From positions 434,001 through 498,000 of the forward strand of contig OZ374559.1 in NCBI GenBank assembly GCA_977862235.1: a stretch of DNA of 64,000 nucleotides. Direction: 5' to 3'. Every line of letters starts with the position of its first letter. The stretch's first letter is position 1. This document shows positions 13,286 to 27,905 of the stretch, one piece after another. Source of the DNA: Dudresnaya verticillata (lineage: Eukaryota). Made by a program: the position numbers and the translations under genes. Below the pieces are notes generated by a model. That model saw only the letters and a list, made by a program, of their open reading frames with translations. It was not told where the DNA came from and did no database searches.

Positions 13286-13960
13286 TCAGAGCTCAGAGCT
13301 ATGCGCCCTCGATTGAGGAGGTGTCACTTCAAAGCCCGTAAATGTTGCAACGCAGCCTCCGCCCTTCGTTGGTGACGCTGCGAAAGGCCCAACATGCCAT
13401 AAAGATCCCTCTGGCACATCCAGATAAGAGACGCGCACCATTCTGAACTCTTCCGGGTTCTTTGGGCTGGCGATCTCCATAGCCACGGAGTTTCCAATGA
13501 GATGGACCCGCAGTCGCACTGTCGCGACTCCATTTTGTGAGGAGTCCCATGCTCGTGCCGACCAGTCCGAACGGCTATTTGTCACAACGGCACCGAGAGT
13601 CATTTCGCCGTCTGTAAACTCAAACCCAAACTTGATCCAGTGTTCAGCATCAACGCGAACCAAAAGGCCGGCCTGGTCGAATTGATTTGCGGCAGACAGG
13701 TGCAACGTCGTGGTTACAGTTGCGTCTTTTGAAACTGGCTCCACCATAGCTGGGGCGTTGTCCACGATAAGCTCGGGGGTATAGTACGTTTTCCGCCACA
13801 TGTCGGAGCCGCTGGGTGGAATAACAAGTAACGATGAAGATGTAAGTGAGAAGCCGCCTCCTTGTCCAGCGTTTTCCGCTGGTTTCGCCTTGTGGTCATC
13901 GGTGAGTTCTGGAAGTGGGCCATTTAACCATTGCAGTTTGTGCAAACCTTTGGAAAACAT
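13286..13960 (-). CDS. DUF1349 family (REE1-like, concanavalin-like beta-sandwich) protein
   Basis: Family-like motifs SDMWRKTYY, DNAP, FDQAGLLVRVDAEHWIKFGFEF, GAVVTNSRSDWS, VGPFAASP; first ATG at 13960; single exon. Confidence 0.85.
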   Translation of the reverse strand: MFSKGLHKLQWLNGPLPELTDDHKAKPAENAGQGGGFSLTSSSLLVIPPSGSDMWRKTYYTPELIVDNAPAMVEPVSKDATVTTTLHLSAANQFDQAGLLVRVDAEHWIKFGFEFTDGEMTLGAVVTNSRSDWSARAWDSSQNGVATVRLRVHLIGNSVAMEIASPKNPEEFRMVRVSYLDVPEGSLWHVGPFAASPTKGGGCVATFTGFEVTPPQSRAHSSEL

Positions 13961-15069
13961 CTTGAGGCTGAAGCTGAGTGAAGCCGTATCTCCGTGAGTG
14001 AGACAACAGAGCTGGAGATTGAAACGGGATGTGGTATTTGCTGTTAGCACCGTCGTAAACTTCTCGACTGCCGAGTTAGAAATGTTACCACTTAAGACAC
14101 CTTAATGGGCTTCTTGCGAATCTTCCGAATAACGAGATGCTACAGTACCAGTGGTATTAGAGTGACGCCAATTGTCTCTCGCTCCATGAGAATTCTTTGG
14201 GAGCACCGTAGGCTCTTGTACATTCACACAGTAACATGTCACGTCCTGTCTGCCCCTCGTTAGAGATCGAGGCGTTAATGCAGCCGAATACTCCCTCAAC
14301 TGATAGGTACACGACAGCGAAACGAATGCGGCCTCAGCCCTGTAGATGTTGAGATCTCACGGAGCAATACATTCTGGCACTCGTACGGGAATGTGTCTCA
14401 TCGTCACATGATGCGTAGAGCACGCATCAGCAATATTCTAATGGATGCAAGAGATTGCTTGAAAGCACAAAACGATGACGTCTCCAAATTTTGAACGGCG
14501 GTTCAGCTTCAGCCCTTCAGCGAACCATCAATTTTCTCTTTGAGAGACTCCACCGAGGACCCTGTCAGAAAATAAAGAGGAGGGAAACACAGTAAGAGGA
14601 AGGAAGATATGAATAGAAGAGAGAGAACTGTAGATCAAATAAGAAAGTGTGTTTGAATGTGTTAGACTAATTCTTCTAGTTGTCTTGCCTAACACCAAGA
14701 ATGAATGCACTATTGTGGGTTCTTACAGACTTGATACTTCTCAGCTTGAGATAGTAATAGTACTAGTTCAGAAAGTCTAGAAGACTAGATGTTACTACTG
14801 TATTAGTGAAAGTCCGATATACTCGCAATACAGTATTGGTCTGATACTGCATGCATGTAATGAGCTAAGTAGTATCCATCACGGATACACGTTAGATAGT
14901 CGGACCCTTGTTCGGAATCGGTACGGGTCGTGTCCGGCTCTTCGTAGATAGAAACGGTATCCACTGCCTTAAACTGTCTTCTTAAAGTATGATCATAAAG
15001 TATGCCCTCACCCACTAATGTACCATTAACCGCCGCCTCCTCGACTTGTCTTCTCCTTTGCTTCAGCAA

Positions 15070-15683: not shown

Positions 15684-18600
15684 TTACCCTGAGAAGTCTG
15701 CCTCAATCCAAACACGAATCATATGTCGCTGCGAGCCTGATGGAAATGCCTCTCTAGCATGAGCGATGATATGATTGTTTGTAAACATTATATCTCCTCT
15801 TTCCAAACGACACTTCAAGGTTATTCCATGCTCCAGCTCACGATCAAGGGCGTCCATTGCTTGCAGCAGAATCTCTGGGATCTGAACACCAGCTCTTTGA
15901 TGCCCGCTCTCAATCCAGTCTCGCATATACCGAAACCGGGTTGCGCCGCTAGCGGCATCACGAGAGAATATTGGGAAAACGTTGTCTTTAAGACGCAATG
16001 GCAGGATCTTATCAGATCTCATCACCATGTCCCGAATAGTGTTCGCCACATCTTGTGCAGTTTCGCAACTTCGCAGGTCCTGTTCAGACCCTCCAAGGCC
16101 CTTCTCAATCAAATCACGGATAACTGATTCGCGCTCCAGCTCCCCAAGAACAGCTGATGACTCACTAGCTCGCAAAGAATTGTATAAGTTACATGCATTG
16201 GACAGCGATAGCGCACCTCCACTCTCAGCGGGTTTGATGCAATAAAGGCCAACAACGTCTGGGAAAAAGTCGCGCCGTGATCCATCAGTATGAAACGATG
16301 CTGCGTTGCAGGAAACGCTGAACAGCACGTTGTCTTGGGAGGTGCACAGCCCATGGTCCTTGACATGCCACAGGGGACCTCTCTCATTAGAGACATTTCC
16401 CATGCATTTCGACAACAGAAGGTATGCCATTCCCTGCACTTCTTCGGATGCCATTCTAGCTTCACCGTGGTCCAGAATGCCTTGAACCAAAACAGCCCCA
16501 GTGCCTGAAGAGCTAGTCAGATTTCTCATAATGCTGGCTGCAAACTCGTTTGTTTCTGAAAGCCTAACTTCTCTCAAATCAGCAGGACACACATCGATTG
16601 GCTTCATGCCTTTCTCAACCAAGCAGTTTGCAGCTTTGAACAACTCGATGGCACAGCTTCGTGGAGTGTTGGACTGGATGTTCTCCAGAGAGAAATTGTT
16701 TCCGTCTACCCTTGACGGCCAGATGATTTCTGGTGAACGTTTAATCCCACCAACATTGGCAGGCTTTCGGACACAGAAAGCCGCATGTAGCGGAACCCCT
16801 TCAAGAGGGCCAAAGAAATCTTTGTCCATAGCCAGCAGCTCCTCTGTCACTCCTAGCTCTACCAAGTCGGGTGTCTCGGTGAATCCCACCGACTTGAGTG
16901 CACGGAAATAGCTCTCAAATGTTTTGTGCGTGCATCTCACGTTGAGGCTGCGCCCGTCTCGAGTCATGATCCTTCCCTCACTGACAGAGTCAACCCTGTC
17001 AAAATAACCCTTATCTCCTTCGTCCCATTGAAATGGAAGCTCCTTCGGCCGGCCAGTCAAATCCCAGAACGGAAAACATGGGTGCGGAACAGAGAACACA
17101 AACTTTCCTCCTGGACGAAGAGTTTGGAAAACATTGTCCATGATTTCTTGCATGTCCTTTTCCGAGACATAGTTGAATACGAAGCATGCCACTGCAGCAT
17201 CAAACGAGTTGCAGACATCAGCACCAACGATAAGCCCTGGGACAGAGGCCGGCCCACTCTCCCTGATGATATCCAAGAGGCGAGTGGCGTCTCCAACAGC
17301 GTAAGTGAGACCTCCTAGGGGATTGGACTTTTCCTCTTCTATTGCAGCCAATATCATTGAACCGGAAACGTCGACGCCGAAAACAGCATCTACATCGTGG
17401 TGTTGTCGCAATTGTCGGGCGAGGTAGCCTTCCCCACATCCAACGTCTAAAACAGTCTGACCTTCAATGGGCTTGAGAAGATCGACAACGCGAGGCCTTC
17501 CGGTGAAGTCTGAAAGGCATGTCGGCTTTCTGCGAATCCAGTTTGAGGCCTGCTTGTTGTACAAAGCGGCGGTTGTCAACCCCGACTTGGACCGCTGCTC
17601 CTCTTCCGCAGACGCCACCTTGCTGGGATCATTGGGAGATCGCATTTTCAGGGCACTCTCAAGCAACGCGTCCCAGAGCTTTTCACGCTCATCGAGGACT
17701 GTGAGCGCCCCGAAGATCAAGTCACGCTCGGTATTTGAAGGGTCACGGCAGATAACCTCCCTGGCGATGTCCAGCAGCGTGGATGCATGGGCGTCGTCGA
17801 CAGAAACATGCAACGGGAAGAAGACGTAGTGCTGAAGATGCATTTCCGGGACGTGATTTTCGAAGGCCGAGATGAAGTGCGGGTAGATGTGCTTGACAAC
17901 AGCCTCGGTGCCTATGGATAGGGCACCGACTGCCGCGGCCTCGGAGGTATCTGGAGAGGCGATGAAGTGGGCGACGGTGTCGCAAAAGTCGTGGCCAGGG
18001 GCGGTATCATCCGTCTCAGAGCCGATATGGTCACCGGCGGCTTGCAGCACGCTCTCGAGCTCGGTCAGGGTCGAGCGGAAGAGAGAGTCATGTGGGATTC
18101 CGGCGACCCATGCCGGTTGTATGCCGTCCTGGGCGAGCTGATGCAGGTCGTCATCGGCGAGGCTGCCAGTCTCCTCAGCGAGGTCGTGCTGCAGGGCGCG
18201 GATATGGCTGGGCGAGCGGAGCTTTGCGATGGCGGCCTCGAGATTAGATCGAAAGGCGCGGTTGTATGGGACATAGTTGCGCAGCAGGTGGAGCAGGGCC
18301 TGGCGAGGCAGCGGGAGGCACTTGGGCGCAGCGGCGGGGGCTGAGAGAGCGGCGAGGTACGGATGGCGGATGGCGCGGTGCGAGCGCAGGACGGCGGCGA
18401 GGTGGGCGTGGACCAGGGGCGGACCGCTAGGGAGGGCTGGGACACGGAGGAGGAAGGCGACGAGCGCGTCGAAGGGCAGATGTGCGGCGGAAGGGGCCGG
18501 GCGAATGTGGCGCGTGAGCAGGGCATGGGCCGTGGCATGCGGGGAGAGGGACGGCGGCAGGTGCAGGGTGGAGAGGGCGGTGGAGAGGGTGGGGACGGTG

Positions 18601-18707
18601 AGCGGGGTTGTCGGCGGGAGCGAGAAGAGGGCGGTGTAGTGCGCGCGTAGGGCGGCGAGCAGAGCGGCGTGCAGGTCGCGGCGTGGTTGCCGGGGCGGGG
18701 TGGGCAT
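15684..18707 (-). CDS. 1007-aa fusion: heme-oxygenase-like diiron (TenA/PqqC/CADD-like) domain + class I SAM methyltransferase + TauD/TfdA-type Fe(II)/2OG dioxygenase
   Basis: Uninterrupted ORF. Diiron-type ligands: LAEETG...GIPHDSLF, GTE, FFPLHVSVDDAHA (H-x3-D-x2-H), ~18400-17650. SAM motif I VLDVGCGEG plus GVDVS and VGDA, ~17570-16770. 2OG dioxygenase FHTDGS (HxD) and GDIMFTNNHIIAHAREAF..RHMIRVW, ~16700-15690. Confidence 0.9.
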   Translation of the reverse strand: MPTPPRQPRRDLHAALLAALRAHYTALFSLPPTTPLTVPTLSTALSTLHLPPSLSPHATAHALLTRHIRPAPSAAHLPFDALVAFLLRVPALPSGPPLVHAHLAAVLRSHRAIRHPYLAALSAPAAAPKCLPLPRQALLHLLRNYVPYNRAFRSNLEAAIAKLRSPSHIRALQHDLAEETGSLADDDLHQLAQDGIQPAWVAGIPHDSLFRSTLTELESVLQAAGDHIGSETDDTAPGHDFCDTVAHFIASPDTSEAAAVGALSIGTEAVVKHIYPHFISAFENHVPEMHLQHYVFFPLHVSVDDAHASTLLDIAREVICRDPSNTERDLIFGALTVLDEREKLWDALLESALKMRSPNDPSKVASAEEEQRSKSGLTTAALYNKQASNWIRRKPTCLSDFTGRPRVVDLLKPIEGQTVLDVGCGEGYLARQLRQHHDVDAVFGVDVSGSMILAAIEEEKSNPLGGLTYAVGDATRLLDIIRESGPASVPGLIVGADVCNSFDAAVACFVFNYVSEKDMQEIMDNVFQTLRPGGKFVFSVPHPCFPFWDLTGRPKELPFQWDEGDKGYFDRVDSVSEGRIMTRDGRSLNVRCTHKTFESYFRALKSVGFTETPDLVELGVTEELLAMDKDFFGPLEGVPLHAAFCVRKPANVGGIKRSPEIIWPSRVDGNNFSLENIQSNTPRSCAIELFKAANCLVEKGMKPIDVCPADLREVRLSETNEFAASIMRNLTSSSGTGAVLVQGILDHGEARMASEEVQGMAYLLLSKCMGNVSNERGPLWHVKDHGLCTSQDNVLFSVSCNAASFHTDGSRRDFFPDVVGLYCIKPAESGGALSLSNACNLYNSLRASESSAVLGELERESVIRDLIEKGLGGSEQDLRSCETAQDVANTIRDMVMRSDKILPLRLKDNVFPIFSRDAASGATRFRYMRDWIESGHQRAGVQIPEILLQAMDALDRELEHGITLKCRLERGDIMFTNNHIIAHAREAFPSGSQRHMIRVWIEADFSG

Positions 18708-18713
18708 TGTGGC

Positions 18714-18805
18714 GGGGTGGGAGGTGCGGCGCGGTGGGTGGGAGGTGCGGCGCGGTGGGTGGGAGGTGCGGCGCGGTGGGTGGGAGGTGTGGCGCGGGGA
18801 GGTGG
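18714..18805. repeat. About four tandem 21-bp G-rich repeats immediately upstream of the fusion-gene ATG
   Basis: gggaggtgcggcgcggtgggt repeated. Confidence 0.9.
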
Positions 18806-19134
18806 TATCTGTCTTATGTTGAAGGGTATTTATTTGTACTGTACCTTTATACTGTAGCAGTGCGTGGGTGGCGGGGGGAATGATGGGCTCGTCAGGTCGG
18901 AAGCATTCTTGGAGGGGGCGAGCAGGTTTTTGCGAAAAAGGTATGCGTTTCCCCCTACGAGCAGTCTATCGCTACGAACAGAAAATGGACTCATGGACTT
19001 ATATTTTGTTACGTGGTATGGGACGGCGGTGCTACGTACAGTATCAGGCCCTGGTTATTATCGATCAAAATCTAGAATCTGGCGCCCTTGGCCCCAAGGC
19101 TGTGCGCAACCAATCACGCTGAAACTTTGCTGAA

Positions 19135-19257
19135 TGTTACGCCGCTGGAGGATGCGCGGCAAAAGCTGACAAATTTTATTTGTATTTTGCATCTTCGCGC
19201 GAACCCAGACGGGCTCACGCGAAGACCGGCGGCGCACGTATTACAAAGCGACCGCCT

Positions 19258-19294
<37 letters not shown>

Positions 19295-19481
19295 TGGCGA
19301 CCGAGTTAGAACAGTAAACAGCTTGAGATCACTAAGAGTGTGGTCAGGCTACTGCGAGGGTGTTCCGCCCGAGCCCTTGTGGCTGTTCCCCATTATCCCC
19401 GTCCGCCCCGTTAACCCCTTCGCGTCGCGGAAACAAGGTTGCTCTTGTGGCGACCCACGCGCCCCTATGACTCTCACAACA
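19135..19481 (+). repeat. 5' LTR
   Basis: Starts TGTTACGCC, ends CTCTCACAACA; aligns with 27571-27905; contains a long poly-C run. Confidence 0.92.
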
Positions 19482-19569
19482 ATCCAGATTAGAGTGTCGC
19501 AAGACGCGCTCGAGTTCAACAACACAAAGTCCGTCCAAGGTGAAGCGCTGATCTACACCGATCGACACC

Positions 19570-21444
19570 ATGTCCGAGGGCGCAGCTGTACGCACTAAGA
19601 CCCAGGCTAGTACGAAGTATAGCCGTATCAAGAAGAGACTCGACACTGCTGTGGTGAAGGATCCGTTCTTCGAGGAACTGTTCAATGTGAGCCGGTCGAT
19701 CCTTGATACCTACCGACAGACAAGCGCGGGAAACACCGCCGCCGTTTTTTCCCCGGCTGACGTCGTCAAGGAACACATTCAAAGTCTTCTTCCTACCCCA
19801 TCCGTCACCTACACGGAGAAGTTCTTCACCGTTCCGCTCTTCCCGATCGTTCTGCTGCACGATGTTGGGACGTTTTACGGACTTGGTGACATACCATAAG
19901 GTGCCGTTGAGGGAACTGCACTTTCAGATCTTAAGGCTGAAAGTCCCAACCTGCTCACGCATGTTTGGTTCGCGAAACGTCCGGGTTTTAACGCGCGTGA
20001 AGTGAAAGAAGTTCTTGAAACGTATCGTCGCTTCCGTGGAGACTTATCCTTCCTTCGTATGAACAGAGCAAACACCCAGTCTTATGGAAACAGTGTGACT
20101 CTTCCAATGGGTCGTGCGGGAACTGAACCTTCACCCGTCACCGAGAAGGAGGCCAACGCTGAACGCAACAGGTGCCAAGATTCTCCTTCGCCTCGTGATA
20201 TCAATCCGTCGCGCGCTGAGAGACTTTCTGCCCAGCCGGATCGCCGTGCGAATAGTGCTTCGAATGTTTCTGCTGAAGCTCATGGTCAAGATGACTACCG
20301 CCCGGTGCGAGACGAATCTCGTAAGGCAGCTTACGTTCATCTGCACTTCAAGTCACGCAAGTTCACTGGCGATCTTTTTCAGTCCATAGAGTTGTTGCTT
20401 CGTGATTACAATATCTGCGCTCGTCAACATCGTCTTACTCCGGTTCAAAAGGCAGATTACTTCATCAATTTTCTAAAAGGCGCTGCCCGAAACTTCTTCT
20501 TCAACAACGCTCGAGACGATATGTCATTCGATGACATGGCGAGGCTAATGAAGAACGAGTACGACAACGATGCTCGACAGCTCCAAGTTCAGACCTCCTT
20601 GGAAACCCTCAAGCTCCACCGCTTCATGTCCGAGAAGGAGATAACCTCTGTATGTGATGGGCTCACAAAACTTGTCGACCACATCGAATTCATGAGCCCA
20701 CAGTGCGCTACATATTTCCGTAGCGAGCAGCACCATATTCGCTACCTCCGTGGTGCTATCCTGCAGTACTCATGGGCGAAAATTCCAATCAGCCATCTGG
20801 TCACTGCGACGTACAGCTTCAACCAGTTCGTCACTGCTCTCCGCGAGAGCCTGGAACTCGAGGACGAGATCCAGGATCTTCAATCTGGTTCGAATTCTAC
20901 CCGCTATGCGCCATCGCAAGAAACTCACTACGGGCAGTACGGTCGTCACCCGAAATACGTCCGCAAGCATGATGACAATCGCCCGAGGAACAACAAGGCC
21001 CCGAACAAGTTTGGACGTACATTTGATGAGAGCAGACGCCGTAATGAGTGTCACAAATGTGGTTTCTCCCCGTGGAAGCCCAGCCATCGGTGTGCTCCGG
21101 GTTCCATTCGCAGCTCTGTTCGAGAAAAGCTCAGGAATGGGAAATCATCCGTGCATATTGTGTCGGACCTAGTTGTCGGCCTCGAGCAAGAGACCGACCA
21201 GCACCCTGAGGATGACACCGAGGATGGTAATGGCTTGCCAGGAAATCAAAGAATTGAGGAGACTCACCACCAGGCAATTAGTACCGACCTGGATGAGTTT
21301 GATACGCTTACCTCCACTTTTGCGCAACCCGTTGACACTTCCGTAGTCGAAGAAGTCGACAAGGAATGGTTTACCCACCACTTTACTGCCGCGCTCTCGA
21401 ACCAGGGTTCCAAACCTCATGAAGAAACCCAGGCTTTTTGCTAA
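19570..21444 (+). pseudogene. Copia gag with one premature stop
   Basis: ORFs 19570-19899 and 20002-21444 are in the same frame, separated by TAA at 19897-19899; zinc-knuckle-like CHKCGFSPWKPSHRC. Confidence 0.8.
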
Positions 21445-21492
21445 AGCGACGAGGCTCCATGCCTCAGACTCATCTCACTAAGCGTCAGGTGA

Positions 21493-23298
21493 ATGCACAT
21501 CGCACCACCTGTCAGAGGCGCATTTTGGAAGGAAAGATTTCCGTTCCCGCTCCTGTTGACTGCTCAGACATACATGTTGCTCAAATGTCAGGCACGACAA
21601 AACACCGGCTCCATGGGGTTTTGCCTGGATACAGGAGCACCAAGATCTGTAGTTGGAAGGAAACAACTCAATCGGATCATGAATGCTTTGGGAATCCACA
21701 AGTGGAAGTCTCATCGCTCGGAGACCCGGTTTCGTTTTGCAGACAAATGCTACAGTTCACTTAGCAAGGTCTCGTTACCACTGCTAACGCCACCGAGTGT
21801 TCCTAGAGTCGAAATCGAGCTCGACGTAGTGGAGGCAGACATCCCTGCCTTGCTCGGTATGGAAGTCCTAGACAGGGAACAATTACTCGTGGACACGGTT
21901 TGCAACAGACTATCGAAGCGTGTCGAGGTAGAGATAGCAGAAGGAAAGACAGCGTACGTCGATGAGTGGTCTGCCCCTTTAGAAAGATCACAGAGCAGGC
22001 ACATATACGCTCCCATCGACAGCAGCACGCGAGTTCACTTCACCCGAGCACAACTCCAACGCTTGCATCGTCAGTTTTATCACCCATCTGCCGATAAGTT
22101 GTTCAAGTTACTACGTAAGGAGAGACCAGAAGACGTAACACCTGAAGCCCTCAAGATCCTCGAAGACTTGGGAAAGAGGTGCGGTCCATGCCAACGTATC
22201 CAGAACGCTCCAGTGCGTTTCAAGGTGACGTTCGGAGCTGAGAACGTCAGGTTCAATGAGCGAATATTCATCGATGTCATGTACTTGGAAGGAAAACCGG
22301 TACTTACTATCATTGATGAAGGTAACCGCTTTGGTGCAGCTCGCTTACTACCTGATGTTTCGACCAAAACCATCTGGGAAACTTTACTGACCTGCTGGAC
22401 AACCATCTACACAGGATTACCAAACCGCATGCTTGTGGATCAAGGAAGTGCTTTCGCAAATACGTTCGTTGACATGGCTGCTATTTCGAGTGTTAAGGTT
22501 GACCACACCGGCGTCGAGGCTCACTCCAGCCTTGGCCTAACGGAAAGATACCATCAACCCCTCCGTACGACGTTCAGGACGATTATGGCCGACCAACCGC
22601 AAACGGACCGCAACCTAGCGCTCCAGGCTGCGGTCAAAGCCATGAACGATACCTTAGGCCCGGAAGGGCTTGTGCCGTCATCCTTGGTTTTTGGAGAGTA
22701 CCCCAAGGTAACCACGCGAGACGAGCCAGCACCAGTACGAGCCAATCTACGAAGCCGAGCTATAATGGCAGGTACAGCTCGTAAGGAGATGGAGAAAATC
22801 ATGGCAAAGCACAGAGTCGAACGGGCATTGAAGAGGGCAATACCAAGCGCAGTGGATAGAACATTTCAGGCAGGAGACGAAGTATTGGTTTTCAGAGAGA
22901 AGCTCATTGCGAACCGAATTGGAGAATGGGTTGGCCCATTCAAGGTTATAGCAGTGGACTATGAAAAGAAGCTGGTTTATGTTCAGGATGTTCAAGTCGG
23001 AAATGCACGGCCATTTAATATCACGAATGTCAAGAAGTACCAGCAACCCGTGGAAATAGCGAACTCTTTGTTCAGTGATATGCATGATGCTCTGTCGCAT
23101 TACGGATCGCCTCTTGAAGACGATGACATTTTCCTCACGGAAATTCTCGACCCCAGCGATCCGCGAGCCACATCCAAACGCATGGACGAAGCTAAGAGAA
23201 AAGAAGTTCGAGACCTGTTGAACAAGGGAGCATTTAAGGTAATTGTTAGAGAGGATGTACCACCTGGTACCAAGTTCTGCCTGGACGCTTTGTCCTAG
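21493..23298 (+). pseudogene. Copia pol: aspartic protease and integrase
   Basis: LDTGA protease motif; HRQFYH...CGPC zinc-binding motif; IDVMYL, DQGSAF and GLTERYHQPLR DDE core; frameshift near 23272. Confidence 0.9.
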
Positions 23299-24100
23299 CA
23301 ATCAAGTCTACGGAAGATGGCCAGGAAAAGTACAAGGCAAGATACGTCATAGGAGGCCACCGGGACAAGCTGAAACACATGATGGTACACTCAAGTGCCA
23401 CGCTTCAGCCCCAGTTGGTCCGACTACTACTTGCTCTTGCAGCAATGTTCGGGTTCGACATCTGGACTTCCAACGAGAAGCAAGCCTACCTTCAATCTGC
23501 TGAACCGCTTGCCCGGGAGATCTTCATTGACAAGCCAGTTGCAGAGTTCGAACTAGAACGTTCTAGGGTACCCTGGCAATGTCTCCAACTGCTCAAACCA
23601 CTCTACGGTTTATGTGAATCAAGAGACTTATGGCATGCTACGCTGGATAAGCACCATAGGCAAGACCTCGGTATGACGCCGCTCCGGTCAGACCCAGCGC
23701 TATACATCCTCATGGTGAATGGAATCCTTCAGGGGCTTAGCGGGGGCTACGTAGATGACCTACTTCGAGCAGGAAATTCCAAGTTCAAGGAAGTTGCAAG
23801 CGATACCCACAAGAAGTTCGAAATGACCGAGTGCAGCTACTTACCATGTGAGTTTACTGATTTCACTCTGACGAAGGACAAGGATGGCCTAGTCTGTATT
23901 GACCAGCACAAGTACCTACGAAAGTTGGAACAACAAACATGGAATTGCTCTTTCAAGGCATTCCGGTCGATGCGCATGCGACTCGCATGGCTCGCTAACA
24001 CAAGGCCGGACCTGCTGGTACAGATTGGACAGATGGCCCAAGTAACTGAAGAGATGTTCAAACAGAACGCCAAGCTTCATGTCAAGAGATTGAAACGTGT
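23272..24100 (+). pseudogene. Copia reverse transcriptase (frameshifted, 3'-interrupted)
   Basis: VLPGRFVLAIK..KYKARYVIGGHRD, QAYLQS, LLKPLYGL, YVDDLL. Confidence 0.9.
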
Positions 24101-25806
24101 GCTATAACGAAGTCCACGGTGACGCGGGAAGTCTCGCACTGTAAGGAATGGCCTCGGAGCCTAACGAATGGCCTCGAAACCTAACGGAGAAACGAAAAGG
24201 GGTGATAGCGTGGTAGAGCGGAGCGACCAACACGAAGGACCACGGTGTCAACGTATTCGTGTGCGGAAGGGAGAACTCGAGCGATCGATCACCGGGGATG
24301 ACTCCGGGTGCGCGGGGCTATCGAAAGCGAGGCTCGACCGTATCCGCGGTCACGAAGACGAAGACACCGGACTCGAAGAAACAGGCGTTTACCGAAGACT
24401 CCGAGGTCCGGGCGCTAGTCGCTTCCCCGGAAACCCTCGGAGGTTGCGCCAGACGACTGGCTAAGTAATACTACGTGAGCACGAATGCAAGTCAACGCGG
24501 GAGACGATTCGTACTCGAATGATTCGTAACGGCCTCGGTGCCAACGAACGGTCGCCTCACGTATGGTGGCGGTTGCGAAGTGCGCCAGCGATGCATACGG
24601 AGGTGCGCGTGTCTCGTGGGCCCCGGTGCCGTTATGCGCGGGAAACAACGGGAAAGTCACGAAGGTGTCAGTGATTTCGTATCGGGTGCGCACTGTAATG
24701 TGAATGCCATCGTGGCGCGCGCGATCACGAAGTCGGCTCGGAATTCGTCCGGAGGTGTCAGCGATTTCGTATCACGTGCGTGCTGTAATGCGAGTGCCAT
24801 CGTGGCACGCGCACAGTATGCGCTCTGTAATACGTTTGCCATCGTGGCGTGCGCATTCACGGAGTCACTTCGAAATTCGTATTTCTCGATTATTTTCACG
24901 TAGACCAGGGGGGCCCCAGTTTTCGCTTTCAAGCGGGTTGATATGCAGCGTCTACCGACGGACGACCGCCAACGGCGCGCTCAACCCGCCCGCGGCGCAA
25001 AAACGTCACCGACGCATGCCGCTGGCCACTTGGGCCAGAACGGCTCGCTGGGCGTGCAGACCGCACGCCTGAACCCGGCCACTGTACGGCGCCACGCGTA
25101 CGCGCATGGGGCAGTGGCGGGAACGTTCGCTGTAAGCGTGGCCCGAATCCGGATCCAATCGGGATCCCACATCGGGATCCCACATCGGGATTAAGGGGTG
25201 TAAGGCACGCGCCTGTAAGCCTGGCGCATCCGCATCGCTGGCTCGATTCCGGACTGGATCGGGATTGGTGCGGATCGAGATCGCTCGCGCCATGGGGCGC
25301 ATGCGGCTGTAAGGAAGTAATCCACGTGTAAGTGTAAGGACTTGACGGGGAAGCTACGCGTGATCTGTCAGGAGCGCGGCTGCATGACGGACGGATCTGT
25401 CAGACGCGCCTCGGGACAACACGTGTCCCGAGTTCCCGCGTTACGCGTACATCCGCGTCGCCGCCGCTAGGTAATTCTATACTTAGTTGATCCGTCTCAG
25501 ACGTCACAGTAAACCCCGGCAAGCCGGCCTTGGTCCAGACTTCCCCGTTCAGCACGCGCGTACCCTACCGCTGCCTACGGCTAAGCGTCTACCTCCCGTG
25601 CTTCCACGTCTCTACCCGTCTTCGACGTGTTTCCTTTTTGTTCCTTCTGTTCTTCCTTTCCGCCTCGGGCGTTTACAGTCCGCCCAAAGCGAGTCAATTG
25701 CTCTACCACAAGTCGCCCAAGGCGGGGCTACTCACCGCCAAGGGCGTCGCTACCGACCGAGCCCCGAACTTCTCGGCGGTGTTCCGTCAACGACGTTTGC
25801 ACTACA
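24100..25806 (+). mobile_element. ~1.7-kb non-coding LTR-like insertion between RT and RNase H
   Basis: Interrupts pol; ends gacgtttgcactaCA; has internal ~90-bp and 13-bp repeats and recurring ctgtaa(g) motifs; its 3' part resembles the reverse complement of 28748-28920. No TSD found; left edge approximate. Confidence 0.65.
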
Positions 25807-26245
25807 CATCTGCCTGCTATCTGACAAATATAGTAACGTCGTTCCGTTCCACTTTAAGTCTTACAAGTCAAGACGAGTGGTTAGGTCCGCAATGGCAGGC
25901 GAAGTTATCGCATTTAGCGACCTCTTCGATGTCGCGATTACCCTCTCGAAGGAGCTTAAGGCAATCCTAAGGCAAGAAATACCGGTGCAACTCTTTACCG
26001 ATAGCAAATCTCTATTTGAAATCATTTCGAAAGGCTCTCGAACGTCAGAGAAAAGAATGATGCTAGATGTCGCTGCTGCTCGAGAAGCATTCAAGGAGAA
26101 GGCAATCTCAAACATCGGGTTCGTTAGAAGTTCGCAAAATATTGCAGATGGGCTGACAAGGCAGATTTCGCAAGCCGCTGTACAGTAAATTATGGCAACA
26201 GGAATTCTGAAGGTACGAGCCGAGCAGTGGATCATTCGCAAGTAA
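25807..26245 (+). pseudogene. Copia RNase H (partial, premature stop)
   Basis: VVRSAMAGEVIAFSD, LFTDSKSLF, NIADGLTR; TAA at 26186-26188, natural end EQWIIRK* at 26245. Confidence 0.88.
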
Positions 26246-26257
26246 GATTTTCTAAGT

Positions 26258-27275
26258 TTACTTTGAGGCACGGCGGTTTTTCTCCTTGGCTAAGCCAACT
26301 TTACGCACTTCCGCAACGCGACGTTTGGTCGCCCGAATACCTCCGCACATGCGAAGAGTTTGCGAGGACAAGCGTCGCATAAGGCTCCTCGCTGTCAAAT
26401 GTGACACCCCGGAACCCACCCACGCAGACGCAATGATCAACAACGCCGGTTTGCTCAAGGCGGACGATCCAAAGTCCTTCCGTAACCGACCCAAGCCAAG
26501 AGAACGCAGCCCTTTTTTCCTTCCGGTTGATAGTGGACAACTCCCCTTGGTTAAGCCTACAAACCCGCAAACCCTTCTTGAGACGATGTACCACCGTCCC
26601 GACTTGGGACAAGTAGAAGAAGGTGGTAGGCGAAGTCTGGAGATTGCGACGTATCGCGTTTGCTGAACCACATCCAAGAAGTGCGGTTGCGGCATTCAGA
26701 ATAGCCGCTGGCACGCAGTCAGCGAGCATGCTCATTGCTTGCGTACGCCCAAGCTCGCGCATAAAGTGTCTGGATATCCCCACGGGAGCTGCACCTCGTG
26801 CACCAATAGGGGAAACGAAGACGGCGACGCCATTGTTCTTTCGGCAGTACATCACAACTGCGGCACGAACTTGAGCTTCCCGGGACGACTCATATGCTTG
26901 ACGCGTGTGCCGGTATGGCGGGATGAGGCAAGGACGCGCATGATGGCCTTTCTTGCGCTGCAGGCTTCGCGTGAGCAGACGCAGCGCTGTGCGACCGAAG
27001 CCCTTGAAGGAGACACTGGTAATATCGATTGGATGAAAATCGGGATGCACACCGTGTCTTGAGGCGCATCCGTAGAAGCTTCCTAGCAGTAGCTTCTTCG
27101 CATAGCGCGTGGAGCCATCGCCGGGCTGCCACCGTCTCGACGCCGCAGTCCGCAGGGTTTGCGCGCGGGCGATCACCGTCAGAGGAAGACGGTTCGTATT
27201 GAAGGGTCGTTGCGTCGCTTGTCGTATCCGTCGGTGCGTCGCTCTGCTCCATGGTGAACATCCAGCCGATCCCAA
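26258..27275 (-). pseudogene. Extra antisense ORF inside the Copia element, papain-fold-like Cys/His/Asp pattern
   Basis: 324-codon ORF with ADCVPAAILNA, VVDHCVCV and TFDSEEP; a probable frameshift near 26378 continues into RLSSQTLRMCGG... Confidence 0.5.
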
Positions 27276-27570
27276 GCCGTGACCTGCAGGTTACCCCACT
27301 GGGACAAGAAAGGGAAGGACGCACGGCGCGAACACGAGGAGAGAATACCCAACGGTTGAGCGCGATGCAAGTGCGGCGCGTCGTGGTGTACGCGCAGTAG
27401 CGGTGCGAAGCACAATGTGCACGGAGGAGTTGCAGGGCTGATGTGTGTGTGTGCGCGCCAATTCTGCGTGCGGTCGGAAGCAGGGCACTGACCCTAGGGG
27501 TCGCGACGATTATACGTTGCGCGTTCTGTTGTACGATCGCCGTGCACCGCCGTTTGAGGAATGGAAGGAT

Positions 27571-27905
27571 TATTACGCCGGTGGAGGATGCGCGGCAAAA
27601 GCTGGCAAATTTTATTTGTATTTTGCAACTTCGCGCGAGCCCAGACGGACTCAGGCGAAGACCGGCGGCGCACGTATTAAAAAGCGACCGCCTTCCTCTT
27701 CCTTCCCCCCGGCGACCGAGTTAGAACAGTAAACAGCTTGAGATCACTAAGAGTGTGGTCAGGCTACTGCGAGGGTGTTCCGCCCGAGCCCTGTTCCCCA
27801 TTATCCCCGTCCGCCCCGCTAACCCCTTCGCTCGCTAACCCCATCGCGTCGCGGAAACAAGGTTGCTCTTGTTGCGACCCGCGCGCCCCTACGACTCTCA
27901 CCACA
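27571..27905 (+). repeat. 3' LTR
   Basis: Starts TATTACGCC (TG mutated), ends CTCTCACCACA, followed by the CTGAA TSD. Confidence 0.92.

What the first reader, a model, noticed from the sequence alone, without database searches (positions are those of the whole stretch)
15684..18707. One-gene biosynthetic assembly line: diiron HDO + SAM methyltransferase + TauD-type dioxygenase
Seen: one intact intronless 1007-aa ORF with apparently complete catalytic motifs for three tailoring enzymes (diiron ligands E..H, E, H-x3-D-x2-H; SAM motif VLDVGCGEG; HxD...H...R 2OG triad). Established: heme-oxygenase-like diiron oxidases (CADD, UndA, BesC, SznF) perform N-oxygenation, desaturation or C-C cleavage on amino and fatty acids, mostly in bacteria; in streptozotocin synthesis SznF works with a separate methyltransferase. 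Inference: a bacterial-type three-gene pathway fused into one eukaryotic polypeptide that makes a small methylated, oxidised metabolite (e.g. a modified amino acid or osmolyte). I know of no characterised protein with this architecture. The N-terminal ~90 aa may be a degenerate EF-hand pair (weak).
Basis: partly seen in the sequence, partly recalled or inferred. Interest (0 to 1): 0.87.

Follow-up and report, generated by a model that had tools for sequence, protein, structure and literature searches.

The report
Algal three-enzyme fusion, candidate signal synthase
This gene joins three enzymes (a two-iron oxygenase, a methyltransferase and an iron dioxygenase) that many bacteria keep as an operon, often beside a nitric-oxide sensor, so it likely makes a small signalling molecule and could be an unrecognised route to nitric oxide in algae and cyanobacteria.

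Summary
Confirmed: window 15684-18707 (minus strand) is one intact 1007-aa ORF with a heme-oxygenase-like diiron (HDO), a SAM methyltransferase and a TauD-type domain, all metal and SAM ligands present. It is not a one-off. The same fusion occurs in Pyropia, two diatoms and a diplonemid, and in cyanobacteria, where it carries a four-EF-hand calmodulin-like cap. All fusions form one clade (97/99), sister to bacterial operons with the same three genes, often in the same order. The new clue is context: bacterial relatives of the methyltransferase-HDO pair sit next to an H-NOX nitric-oxide sensor in 32 of 119 loci, in eight gene orders, and in 86 of 101 Nostocaceae genomes; the matching Nostoc genes are co-induced on moss contact. 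Best reading: a regulated pathway making a small N-oxygenated, methylated signal that reaches a heme sensor, NO leading. Substrate and product are untested. Against: the one cyanobacterial genome with the fusion has no H-NOX hit, other relatives sit in glycosylation loci, some algal copies lost the diiron site, and this copy's EF-hands are not detectable. No paper on the module was found in ten searches.

The parts
15684..18707 (-). Single ORF, 1007 aa (P0001), HDO-methyltransferase-TauD fusion
   Evidence: full-length homologues
18423..18707 (-). N-terminal ~95 aa helical cap at the position of the EF-hand domain of relatives; no Ca2+-binding loop; vestige by inference only
   Evidence: model helices and two short beta bridges, pLDDT about 40-80; no significant match to the relatives' cap
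17640..18413 (-). Heme-oxygenase-like diiron domain (residues 99-356), ligands E179, H206, E268, H300, D304, H307
   Evidence: Pfam PF14518; profile hits CADD, BesC; fold HrmI Z 24.2, CADD 23.1, BesC 20.4; conservation
16758..17579 (-). Class I SAM methyltransferase (residues 377-650) of a distinct subfamily with W-x-R...LSDFT(G/A)RP
   Evidence: nearest solved relatives XrdM (8rdl) and ToxA
15687..16730 (-). TauD/clavaminate-synthase-like Fe(II)/2-oxoglutarate dioxygenase (residues 660-1007), H806, D808, H983
   Evidence: nearest solved relatives FrbJ (E 3e-42) and TtnM (E 2.5e-34)

Best explanation
The gene encodes three intact enzyme domains fused from a bacterial operon, and the protein likely makes a small diffusible signal by oxygenating and methylating an amino-acid-type substrate, with nitric oxide or an NO-releasing compound as the most likely active product. 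Shown: the three domains and ligands; descent from an HDO-methyltransferase-dioxygenase operon; one fusion clade shared with cyanobacteria; sensor domains (four EF-hands, or a cyclic-nucleotide-binding domain) fused in front of the HDO in relatives; repeated adjacency of bacterial relatives to H-NOX and its kinase or GGDEF-EAL output. Inferred: the methyltransferase and the diiron domain act on the same substrate (they are the constant pair); the diiron site oxygenates a nitrogen; the 2-oxoglutarate dioxygenase adds a hydroxylation that finishes the molecule or triggers its breakdown; the product or by-product binds a heme sensor; Ca2+ switches the enzyme on in members with live EF-hands, a control that this copy has probably lost.
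For: Ligands kept in 26-28 of 28 fusion HDO domains and 26 of 26 operon HDOs, TauD H806/D808 in 29 of 29 fusions. Neighbours of the methyltransferase subfamily: HDO in 31 of 39 genome loci and 60 of 80 metagenome loci, a 2OG enzyme in 30 of 39 and 47 of 80, H-NOX in 12 of 39 and 20 of 80; in 41 control methyltransferase loci of like total length H-NOX 0, TauD 0, HDO 1 (a truncated member). The 32 H-NOX loci show eight gene orders and G+C 0.38-0.72; their H-NOX proteins keep the proximal His and YxSxR motif by eye and lie in several separate lineages. Nostocaceae: 86 of 101 methyltransferase hits within 3 kb of H-NOX. Planctomycetota: 2 of 6. In PMC5702739 supplements the syntenic N. punctiforme genes rise together on moss contact (log2FC 3.0-3.4 for four genes in physical contact) and the paper found no NO synthase in its Nostoc strains. 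No NOS match in G001, G002, G003. Best fold match is the lysine N-oxygenase HrmI (function from the abstract of PMC11611017). Precedent for methyltransferase plus HDO yielding NO from arginine: SznE/SznF (PMC11705231 passages).
Against: No substrate or product was tested. The one searched genome with the fusion (G435) has no H-NOX match, and only 5 of the 51 TauD-type loci among the 119 have H-NOX, so the link is strongest in branches other than the one leading to this gene. 72 of 167 H-NOX-bearing Nostocaceae genomes have no methyltransferase hit; in 8 of these checked the enzymes are absent beside H-NOX. Other relatives sit with an ATP-grasp ligase and sugar aminotransferase or an adenylation-carrier protein, which points to a small acid that is ligated, not a gas. 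The diiron site is lost in P0005 and P0061 and damaged in P0054 while the other domains persist. SznF is only rank 14 by fold (Z 16.7) and is not hit by sequence; HrmI, CADD and BesC do different chemistry and score within about 4 Z units. The Nostoc induction was not seen in the chemical-contact proteome. An operon shared with a sensor may be its target rather than its signal source.
Confidence: 0.4

Rival explanations
1. The fusion makes a stable small metabolite (a methylated, hydroxylated amino-acid-derived acid, defence compound or osmolyte); H-NOX, Ca2+ and cyclic nucleotides merely control when it is made.
For: Relatives next to ATP-grasp ligase, DegT aminotransferase and glycosyltransferases (L018, L023, L028, L036, L081) or adenylation-carrier proteins (L014, L015, L021) imply a ligatable product. 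The third gene is interchangeable: TauD, a PhyH-like dioxygenase, another putative dioxygenase, or a DapA-like aldolase. G435 has the fusion and no H-NOX. Nearest solved relatives XrdM, ToxA, FrbJ and TtnM are natural-product tailoring enzymes.
Against: Does not by itself explain why the same rare sensor is kept beside the pair in eight gene orders and several H-NOX lineages, nor why second-messenger domains are fused directly to the oxygenase; no transporter recurs in the clustered neighbours.
Confidence: 0.38
2. The module makes a different heme ligand (CO, cyanide or an isonitrile) by oxidative carbon cleavage rather than by N-oxygenation.
For: BesC, UndA and FlcD, which cleave carbon, are close by fold (Z 20.4, 19.8, 19.8); an HDO that releases cyanide is described (title and abstract of PMC11869266); an H-NOX binds CO as well as NO (PMC4436077 passage).
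Against: No residue-level test separates this from N-oxygenation; the characterised H-NOX in the passages read is described as a selective NO sensor.
Confidence: 0.08
3. The enzymes break down or detoxify a compound (an NO-derived or methylated amine) instead of making one, and are switched on by the sensor.
For: An aldolase-like third gene in some loci; TauD domain has weak similarity to betaine hydroxylases.
Against: A SAM-consuming methyltransferase is the most constant member, which is costly for catabolism; no dehydrogenase or transporter recurs.
Confidence: 0.07
4. The domains modify a protein (for example the sensor or the enzyme itself) as a methylation/oxidation switch.
For: CADD, a top sequence and fold match, acts on its own side chains (recalled); the enzymes travel with signalling proteins.
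Against: CADD's Tyr27 and Lys152 (roles recalled) align with Leu in this family; the methyltransferase and TauD domains are closest to small-molecule enzymes.
Confidence: 0.05
5. The ORF is an assembly chimera or a bacterial contaminant.
For: No RNA evidence could be obtained; G+C at third positions falls from 0.85 to 0.44 along the gene.
Against: Dozens of independent full-length homologues share the architecture; the gene groups with eukaryote-type sequences at 100/99; it is flanked by an LTR retrotransposon and sparse genes; the G+C change is gradual.
Confidence: 0.02

Closest known systems
SznE/SznF (StzE/StzF) of streptozotocin biosynthesis
   Same: Methyltransferase plus HDO plus a mononuclear-iron domain; can release NO from an arginine-derived intermediate (PMC11705231). 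Some bacterial relatives of this module even have HDO fused to a cupin.
   Different: No sequence match to SznF for the HDO or the cupin; fold Z 16.7, rank 14; the third domain here is TauD-type; substrate unknown; SznE was not compared.
HrmI/BelK with HrmJ-type Fe/2OG partner
   Same: Best fold match of the HDO domain (Z 24.2, rmsd 2.5, 218 aligned, 18% identity); pairing of HDO with an Fe/2OG enzyme (partner recalled).
   Different: Not found by sequence; here a methyltransferase is the constant partner.
CADD (4-aminobenzoate synthase) and BesC
   Same: Top sequence matches of the HDO profile (E 8e-18 and 3e-15); same six-ligand motif.
   Different: CADD's sacrificial Tyr27/Lys152 (recalled) are not conserved; a 27-residue spacing separates the first two ligands; no halogenase among the annotated neighbours.
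FrbJ and TtnM (TauD-type hydroxylases); XrdM and ToxA (methyltransferases)
   Same: Nearest solved relatives of the third and second domains.
   Different: About 17-22% identity by structure; different pathways; none is fused to an HDO.
NO synthase with H-NOX signalling (animal NOS/sGC; Silicibacter NOS/H-NOX)
   Same: Logic only: an O2-using enzyme under calmodulin control paired with an H-NOX receptor (PMC4436077, PMC8728061 passages).
   Different: No heme oxygenase domain of NOS, no flavin reductase, no homology; NO formation untested.

Membership tests
HDO superfamily (PF14518) | Heme-oxygenase-like helical bundle | tested here: met
   (Z 24.2 to HrmI, 23.1 to CADD)
HDO superfamily (PF14518) | E-H-E-H-(D/E)-H dimetal motif (PMC11363339) | tested here: met
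   E179, H206, E268, H300, D304, H307; conserved in 26-28 of 28 fusions and 26 of 26 operon proteins
HDO superfamily (PF14518) | O2 activation at a dimetal centre | not testable with these tools
   needs spectroscopy
CADD-type 4-aminobenzoate synthase | Sacrificial Tyr27 and Lys152 (recalled) | tested here: not met
   both align with Leu in the family profile
SznF-type N-nitrosating enzyme | HDO followed by a three-His cupin in one chain | tested here: not met
   window protein has no cupin; HDO-cupin relatives exist but do not match SznF by sequence
SznF-type N-nitrosating enzyme | Acts on N-methyl-arginine made by a partner methyltransferase | not testable with these tools
   substrate unknown
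Class I SAM methyltransferase | Rossmann fold with DxGxGxG motif I | tested here: met
   D421, G423, G425, G427 in 29 of 29 fusions and 26 of 26 operon proteins; fold matches ToxA, XrdM
TauD/CAS-like Fe(II)/2OG dioxygenase | HxD...H triad and 2OG-binding Arg | tested here: met
   H806, D808, H983, R985/R994/R998; PF02668 above cut-off
EF-hand / calmodulin-like | Ca2+-binding DxDxD...E loops in helix-loop-helix pairs | tested here: not met
   window copy: no Pfam or profile match; met in P0224 (four EF-hands), P0059, P0050
Nitric oxide synthase | NOS oxygenase domain (PF02898) and reductase | tested here: not met
   no such Pfam match in the protein
Nitric oxide synthase | Forms NO from an amino acid and O2 | not testable with these tools
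   needs the enzyme assay

The most novel reading that the evidence does not exclude
This family is a second, non-heme kind of nitric oxide synthase: a diiron oxygenase, methyltransferase and 2OG dioxygenase that release NO from an amino acid, feed H-NOX sensors in bacteria that lack NOS, were put under Ca2+ control by fusion to a calmodulin-like domain, and passed into red algae, diatoms, dinoflagellates and other protists.
Probability: 0.2. Interest if true: 0.93.

Novelty: new variant of a known kind. Interest (0 to 1): 0.72.

Why it matters
The enzymatic source of NO is unresolved in photosynthetic eukaryotes with NOS-like activity (PMC8728061) and in bacteria that carry H-NOX without NOS (PMC4436077; PMC5702739). 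This module gives a named, clonable candidate in a genetically tractable cyanobacterium and in algae. Even if the product is not NO, it is an uncharacterised HDO pathway shared by bacteria and eukaryotes, held in one polypeptide, with second-messenger domains fused to the oxygenase, and it is strongly induced when Nostoc meets its moss host.

Tried and rejected
No RNA holder was listed; this is no evidence on expression. NCBIfam gave no model above cut-off among the 25 of 42 rows shown. Atlas search of P0001 gave only scores of 0.77. Viral contigs gave only remote methyltransferases (21 loci, best E 1e-18). Rfam found nothing in the window. EF-hand tests on the N-terminus were negative; the shuffle control failed because the real sequence was not reported. 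The HDO domain alone does not resolve the fusion clade. The first IQ-TREE run timed out without support values and was replaced on 40 of 55 rows (15 near-duplicates left out). The 2x2 test for methyltransferase and H-NOX in Nostocaceae ignores kinship and is not used as evidence. SznF orthology and CADD-type self-sacrifice were considered and rejected (see membership). A recalled paper on glycine-derived nitronates was not held and is not relied on. Ten literature searches on combinations of heme oxygenase-like/diiron/PF14518, methyltransferase, TauD, H-NOX, nitric oxide, algae, cyanobacteria and the Nostoc locus tags showed, by title and abstract, no paper on this module; most subscription papers are outside the library. 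Four look-ups of earlier scan findings returned nothing. No complex prediction was run.

Full report
Observation. The ORF at 15684-18707 on the minus strand is real and unbroken, 1007 aa. Pfam places a heme-oxygenase-like iron domain at 140-339, a class I methyltransferase at about 413-542 and a TauD domain at 717-1000. AlphaFold2 folds all three with confidence. The HDO model matches HrmI (Z 24.2), CADD (23.1), BesC (20.4) and, further down, SznF (16.7); the other domains are closest to XrdM/ToxA and to FrbJ/TtnM. The six HDO ligands, the SAM motif and the TauD triad are present and conserved. The surroundings look eukaryotic: few long ORFs, and an LTR retrotransposon with protease, integrase and RVT_2 domains starting about 425 bp upstream. 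The host is not identified.

The fusion is a family. Searches returned 10, 19 and 31 long homologues (each scored only about 8000 candidates) and more among the best 150 of 2191 hits. Named eukaryotic members are Pyropia yezoensis, Thalassiosira exigua, Skeletonema marinoi, Lacrimia lanifica and, partial, Prorocentrum cordatum; most others carry no name. A metagenome contig with cyanobacterial neighbours encodes the three domains behind four EF-hands (L167; P0224), and 14 of the 19 hits are of this kind, two named as Brasilonema and Microseira. It is rare in cyanobacterial genomes: 1 of 389 Nostocaceae, and none of the 13 hits among 401 phylum-wide genomes had a long frame. On a concatenated tree of 40 rows all fusions form one clade (97/99), the cyanobacterial type another within it (99/97), and 17 eukaryote-type rows a third (100/99); the Lacrimia protein is unresolved among them. 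Pyropia groups with the diatom, not with the window gene, so the history includes paralogy or transfer; direction was not tested. Several eukaryotic members keep recognisable EF-hands, the window copy does not, although its model has helices and short beta bridges there.

Bacterial origin. In 80 metagenome loci (of 521) the counts are HDO 60, TauD 35, both 24; many contigs are short. The 41 control loci with other methyltransferases have none of these apart from one truncated member. The profiles used were built partly from these loci, so identities were checked with Pfam on examples. The constant pair is methyltransferase plus HDO; the third gene varies: TauD, a PhyH-like protein, another putative dioxygenase with an ATP-grasp protein, an adenylation-carrier protein, a cupin, or a DapA-like aldolase.

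The signalling clue. H-NOX lies beside the pair in 12 of 39 genome loci and 20 of 80 metagenome loci, in eight gene orders, followed by an HNOBA histidine kinase or a GGDEF-EAL-type protein. In Nostocaceae 86 of 101 methyltransferase hits are within 3 kb of H-NOX, 2 are on other contigs, 7 had unprinted coordinates (4 of these fetched, no H-NOX in the stretch) and 6 genomes have none. Across cyanobacteria it is 8 of 13, in Planctomycetota 2 of 6, one being the seed genome. Linked H-NOX proteins fall in several lineages; starred branches force at least three changes. The HDO is fused to a cyclic-nucleotide-binding domain in 3 of 39 and 7 of 80 loci. In PMC5702739 (passages and supplementary tables read) Npun_R4838 (methyltransferase), R4837 (TenA-like), R4836 (H-NOX), R4835 (kinase) and the divergent F4839 match the gene order of L001; their transcripts rise in chemical contact with moss (log2FC 1.96, 2.23, 1.17, 0.68, 1.45) and in physical contact (3.02, 3.04, 3.09, 1.08, 3.39), more so in a second strain, but not in the chemical-contact proteome. 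The authors found no NO synthase in these strains and assumed the host supplies NO.

Mechanism. Shown: three intact active sites, operon ancestry, sensor fusions, sensor adjacency. Inferred: methylation and diiron oxygenation of one amino-acid-type substrate, then hydroxylation, giving a labile product that reaches a heme sensor. NO is the leading candidate because H-NOX proteins are NO sensors, the best fold match is an N-oxygenase and a methyltransferase-HDO pair is known to yield NO from arginine. The evidence against is substantial: the branch leading to this gene is mostly not H-NOX-linked (5 of 51 TauD-type loci; G435 has no H-NOX match), many H-NOX loci lack the enzymes, other relatives sit in glycan or carrier-protein contexts, and the diiron site has decayed in some eukaryotic members. 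A stable metabolite under sensor control is nearly as likely.

Comparison and novelty. Each domain belongs to a known superfamily; the protein is not an SznF, a CADD-type synthase or a NOS by the features tested. Ten searches of the held library showed no description of the module, the fusion or its link to H-NOX; papers were read as passages (PMC11705231, PMC11363339, PMC4436077, PMC8728061, PMC10849742, PMC13755311, PMC12267927, PMC5702739 with supplements), first part of the text (PMC13185094, PMC12522199) or listing and abstract only (PMC11611017, PMC11869266). Supplementary network tables of the HDO surveys were not read and may list these proteins. Verdict: a real, conserved and uncharacterised fusion, a new variant of the HDO biosynthetic cassette, with a directly testable chance of being a new source of NO.

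Noticed in passing
window 19132-27792: LTR retrotransposon (gag-like, protease, integrase, RVT_2 in separate frames) bounded by ~245-nt direct repeats of 90% identity, inserted about 425 bp upstream of the fusion gene.
   Followed up: partly
window 35400-57800: Tandem array of a 7,582-bp unit (three copies, up to 99.9% identical), each with a 739-nt inverted repeat around a 748-nt spacer; no Rfam match and no Pfam match for the three ORFs tested.
   Followed up: partly
window 13286-14050 (-): DUF1349 gene, similar to yeast YJL217W, downstream on the same strand; not seen beside bacterial relatives.
   Followed up: partly
window 18718-18800: About four copies of a 21-nt G-rich unit directly upstream of the start codon; the frame stays open to 18965 without an ATG.
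   Followed up: no
L018, L023, L028, L036, L081: HDO and methyltransferase with an ATP-grasp protein, a putative dioxygenase without Pfam match and often a DegT aminotransferase in glycosylation loci, including a Pelagibacteraceae genome and a flagellin locus.
   Followed up: partly
L014, L015, L021 and six metagenome loci: HDO and methyltransferase followed by a ~900-aa adenylation-carrier protein with an unassigned C-terminal part.
   Followed up: no
L176:5905-7416, L177, L179, L195: HDO fused to a C-terminal cupin, then methyltransferase and TauD: the parts list of SznE/SznF without sequence match to SznF.
   Followed up: partly
L113, L118, L120, L122, L124, L126, L196: A DapA-like aldolase takes the place of the dioxygenase; in L113 the H-NOX output is a GGDEF-EAL-type protein.
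   Followed up: partly
L013:10929-15120: The three-gene module lies directly before hydrogenase maturation genes hypF and hypD; seen once.
   Followed up: no
G435:C64:134178-134408 and C71:6139-6228: Short NO-synthase-like fragments in the genome that carries the calmodulin fusion.
   Followed up: no
L190-L194, L204, L205: H-NOX and kinase next to the allophycocyanin genes as in L001 but without the enzyme genes, so the module is gained or lost as a block.
   Followed up: partly
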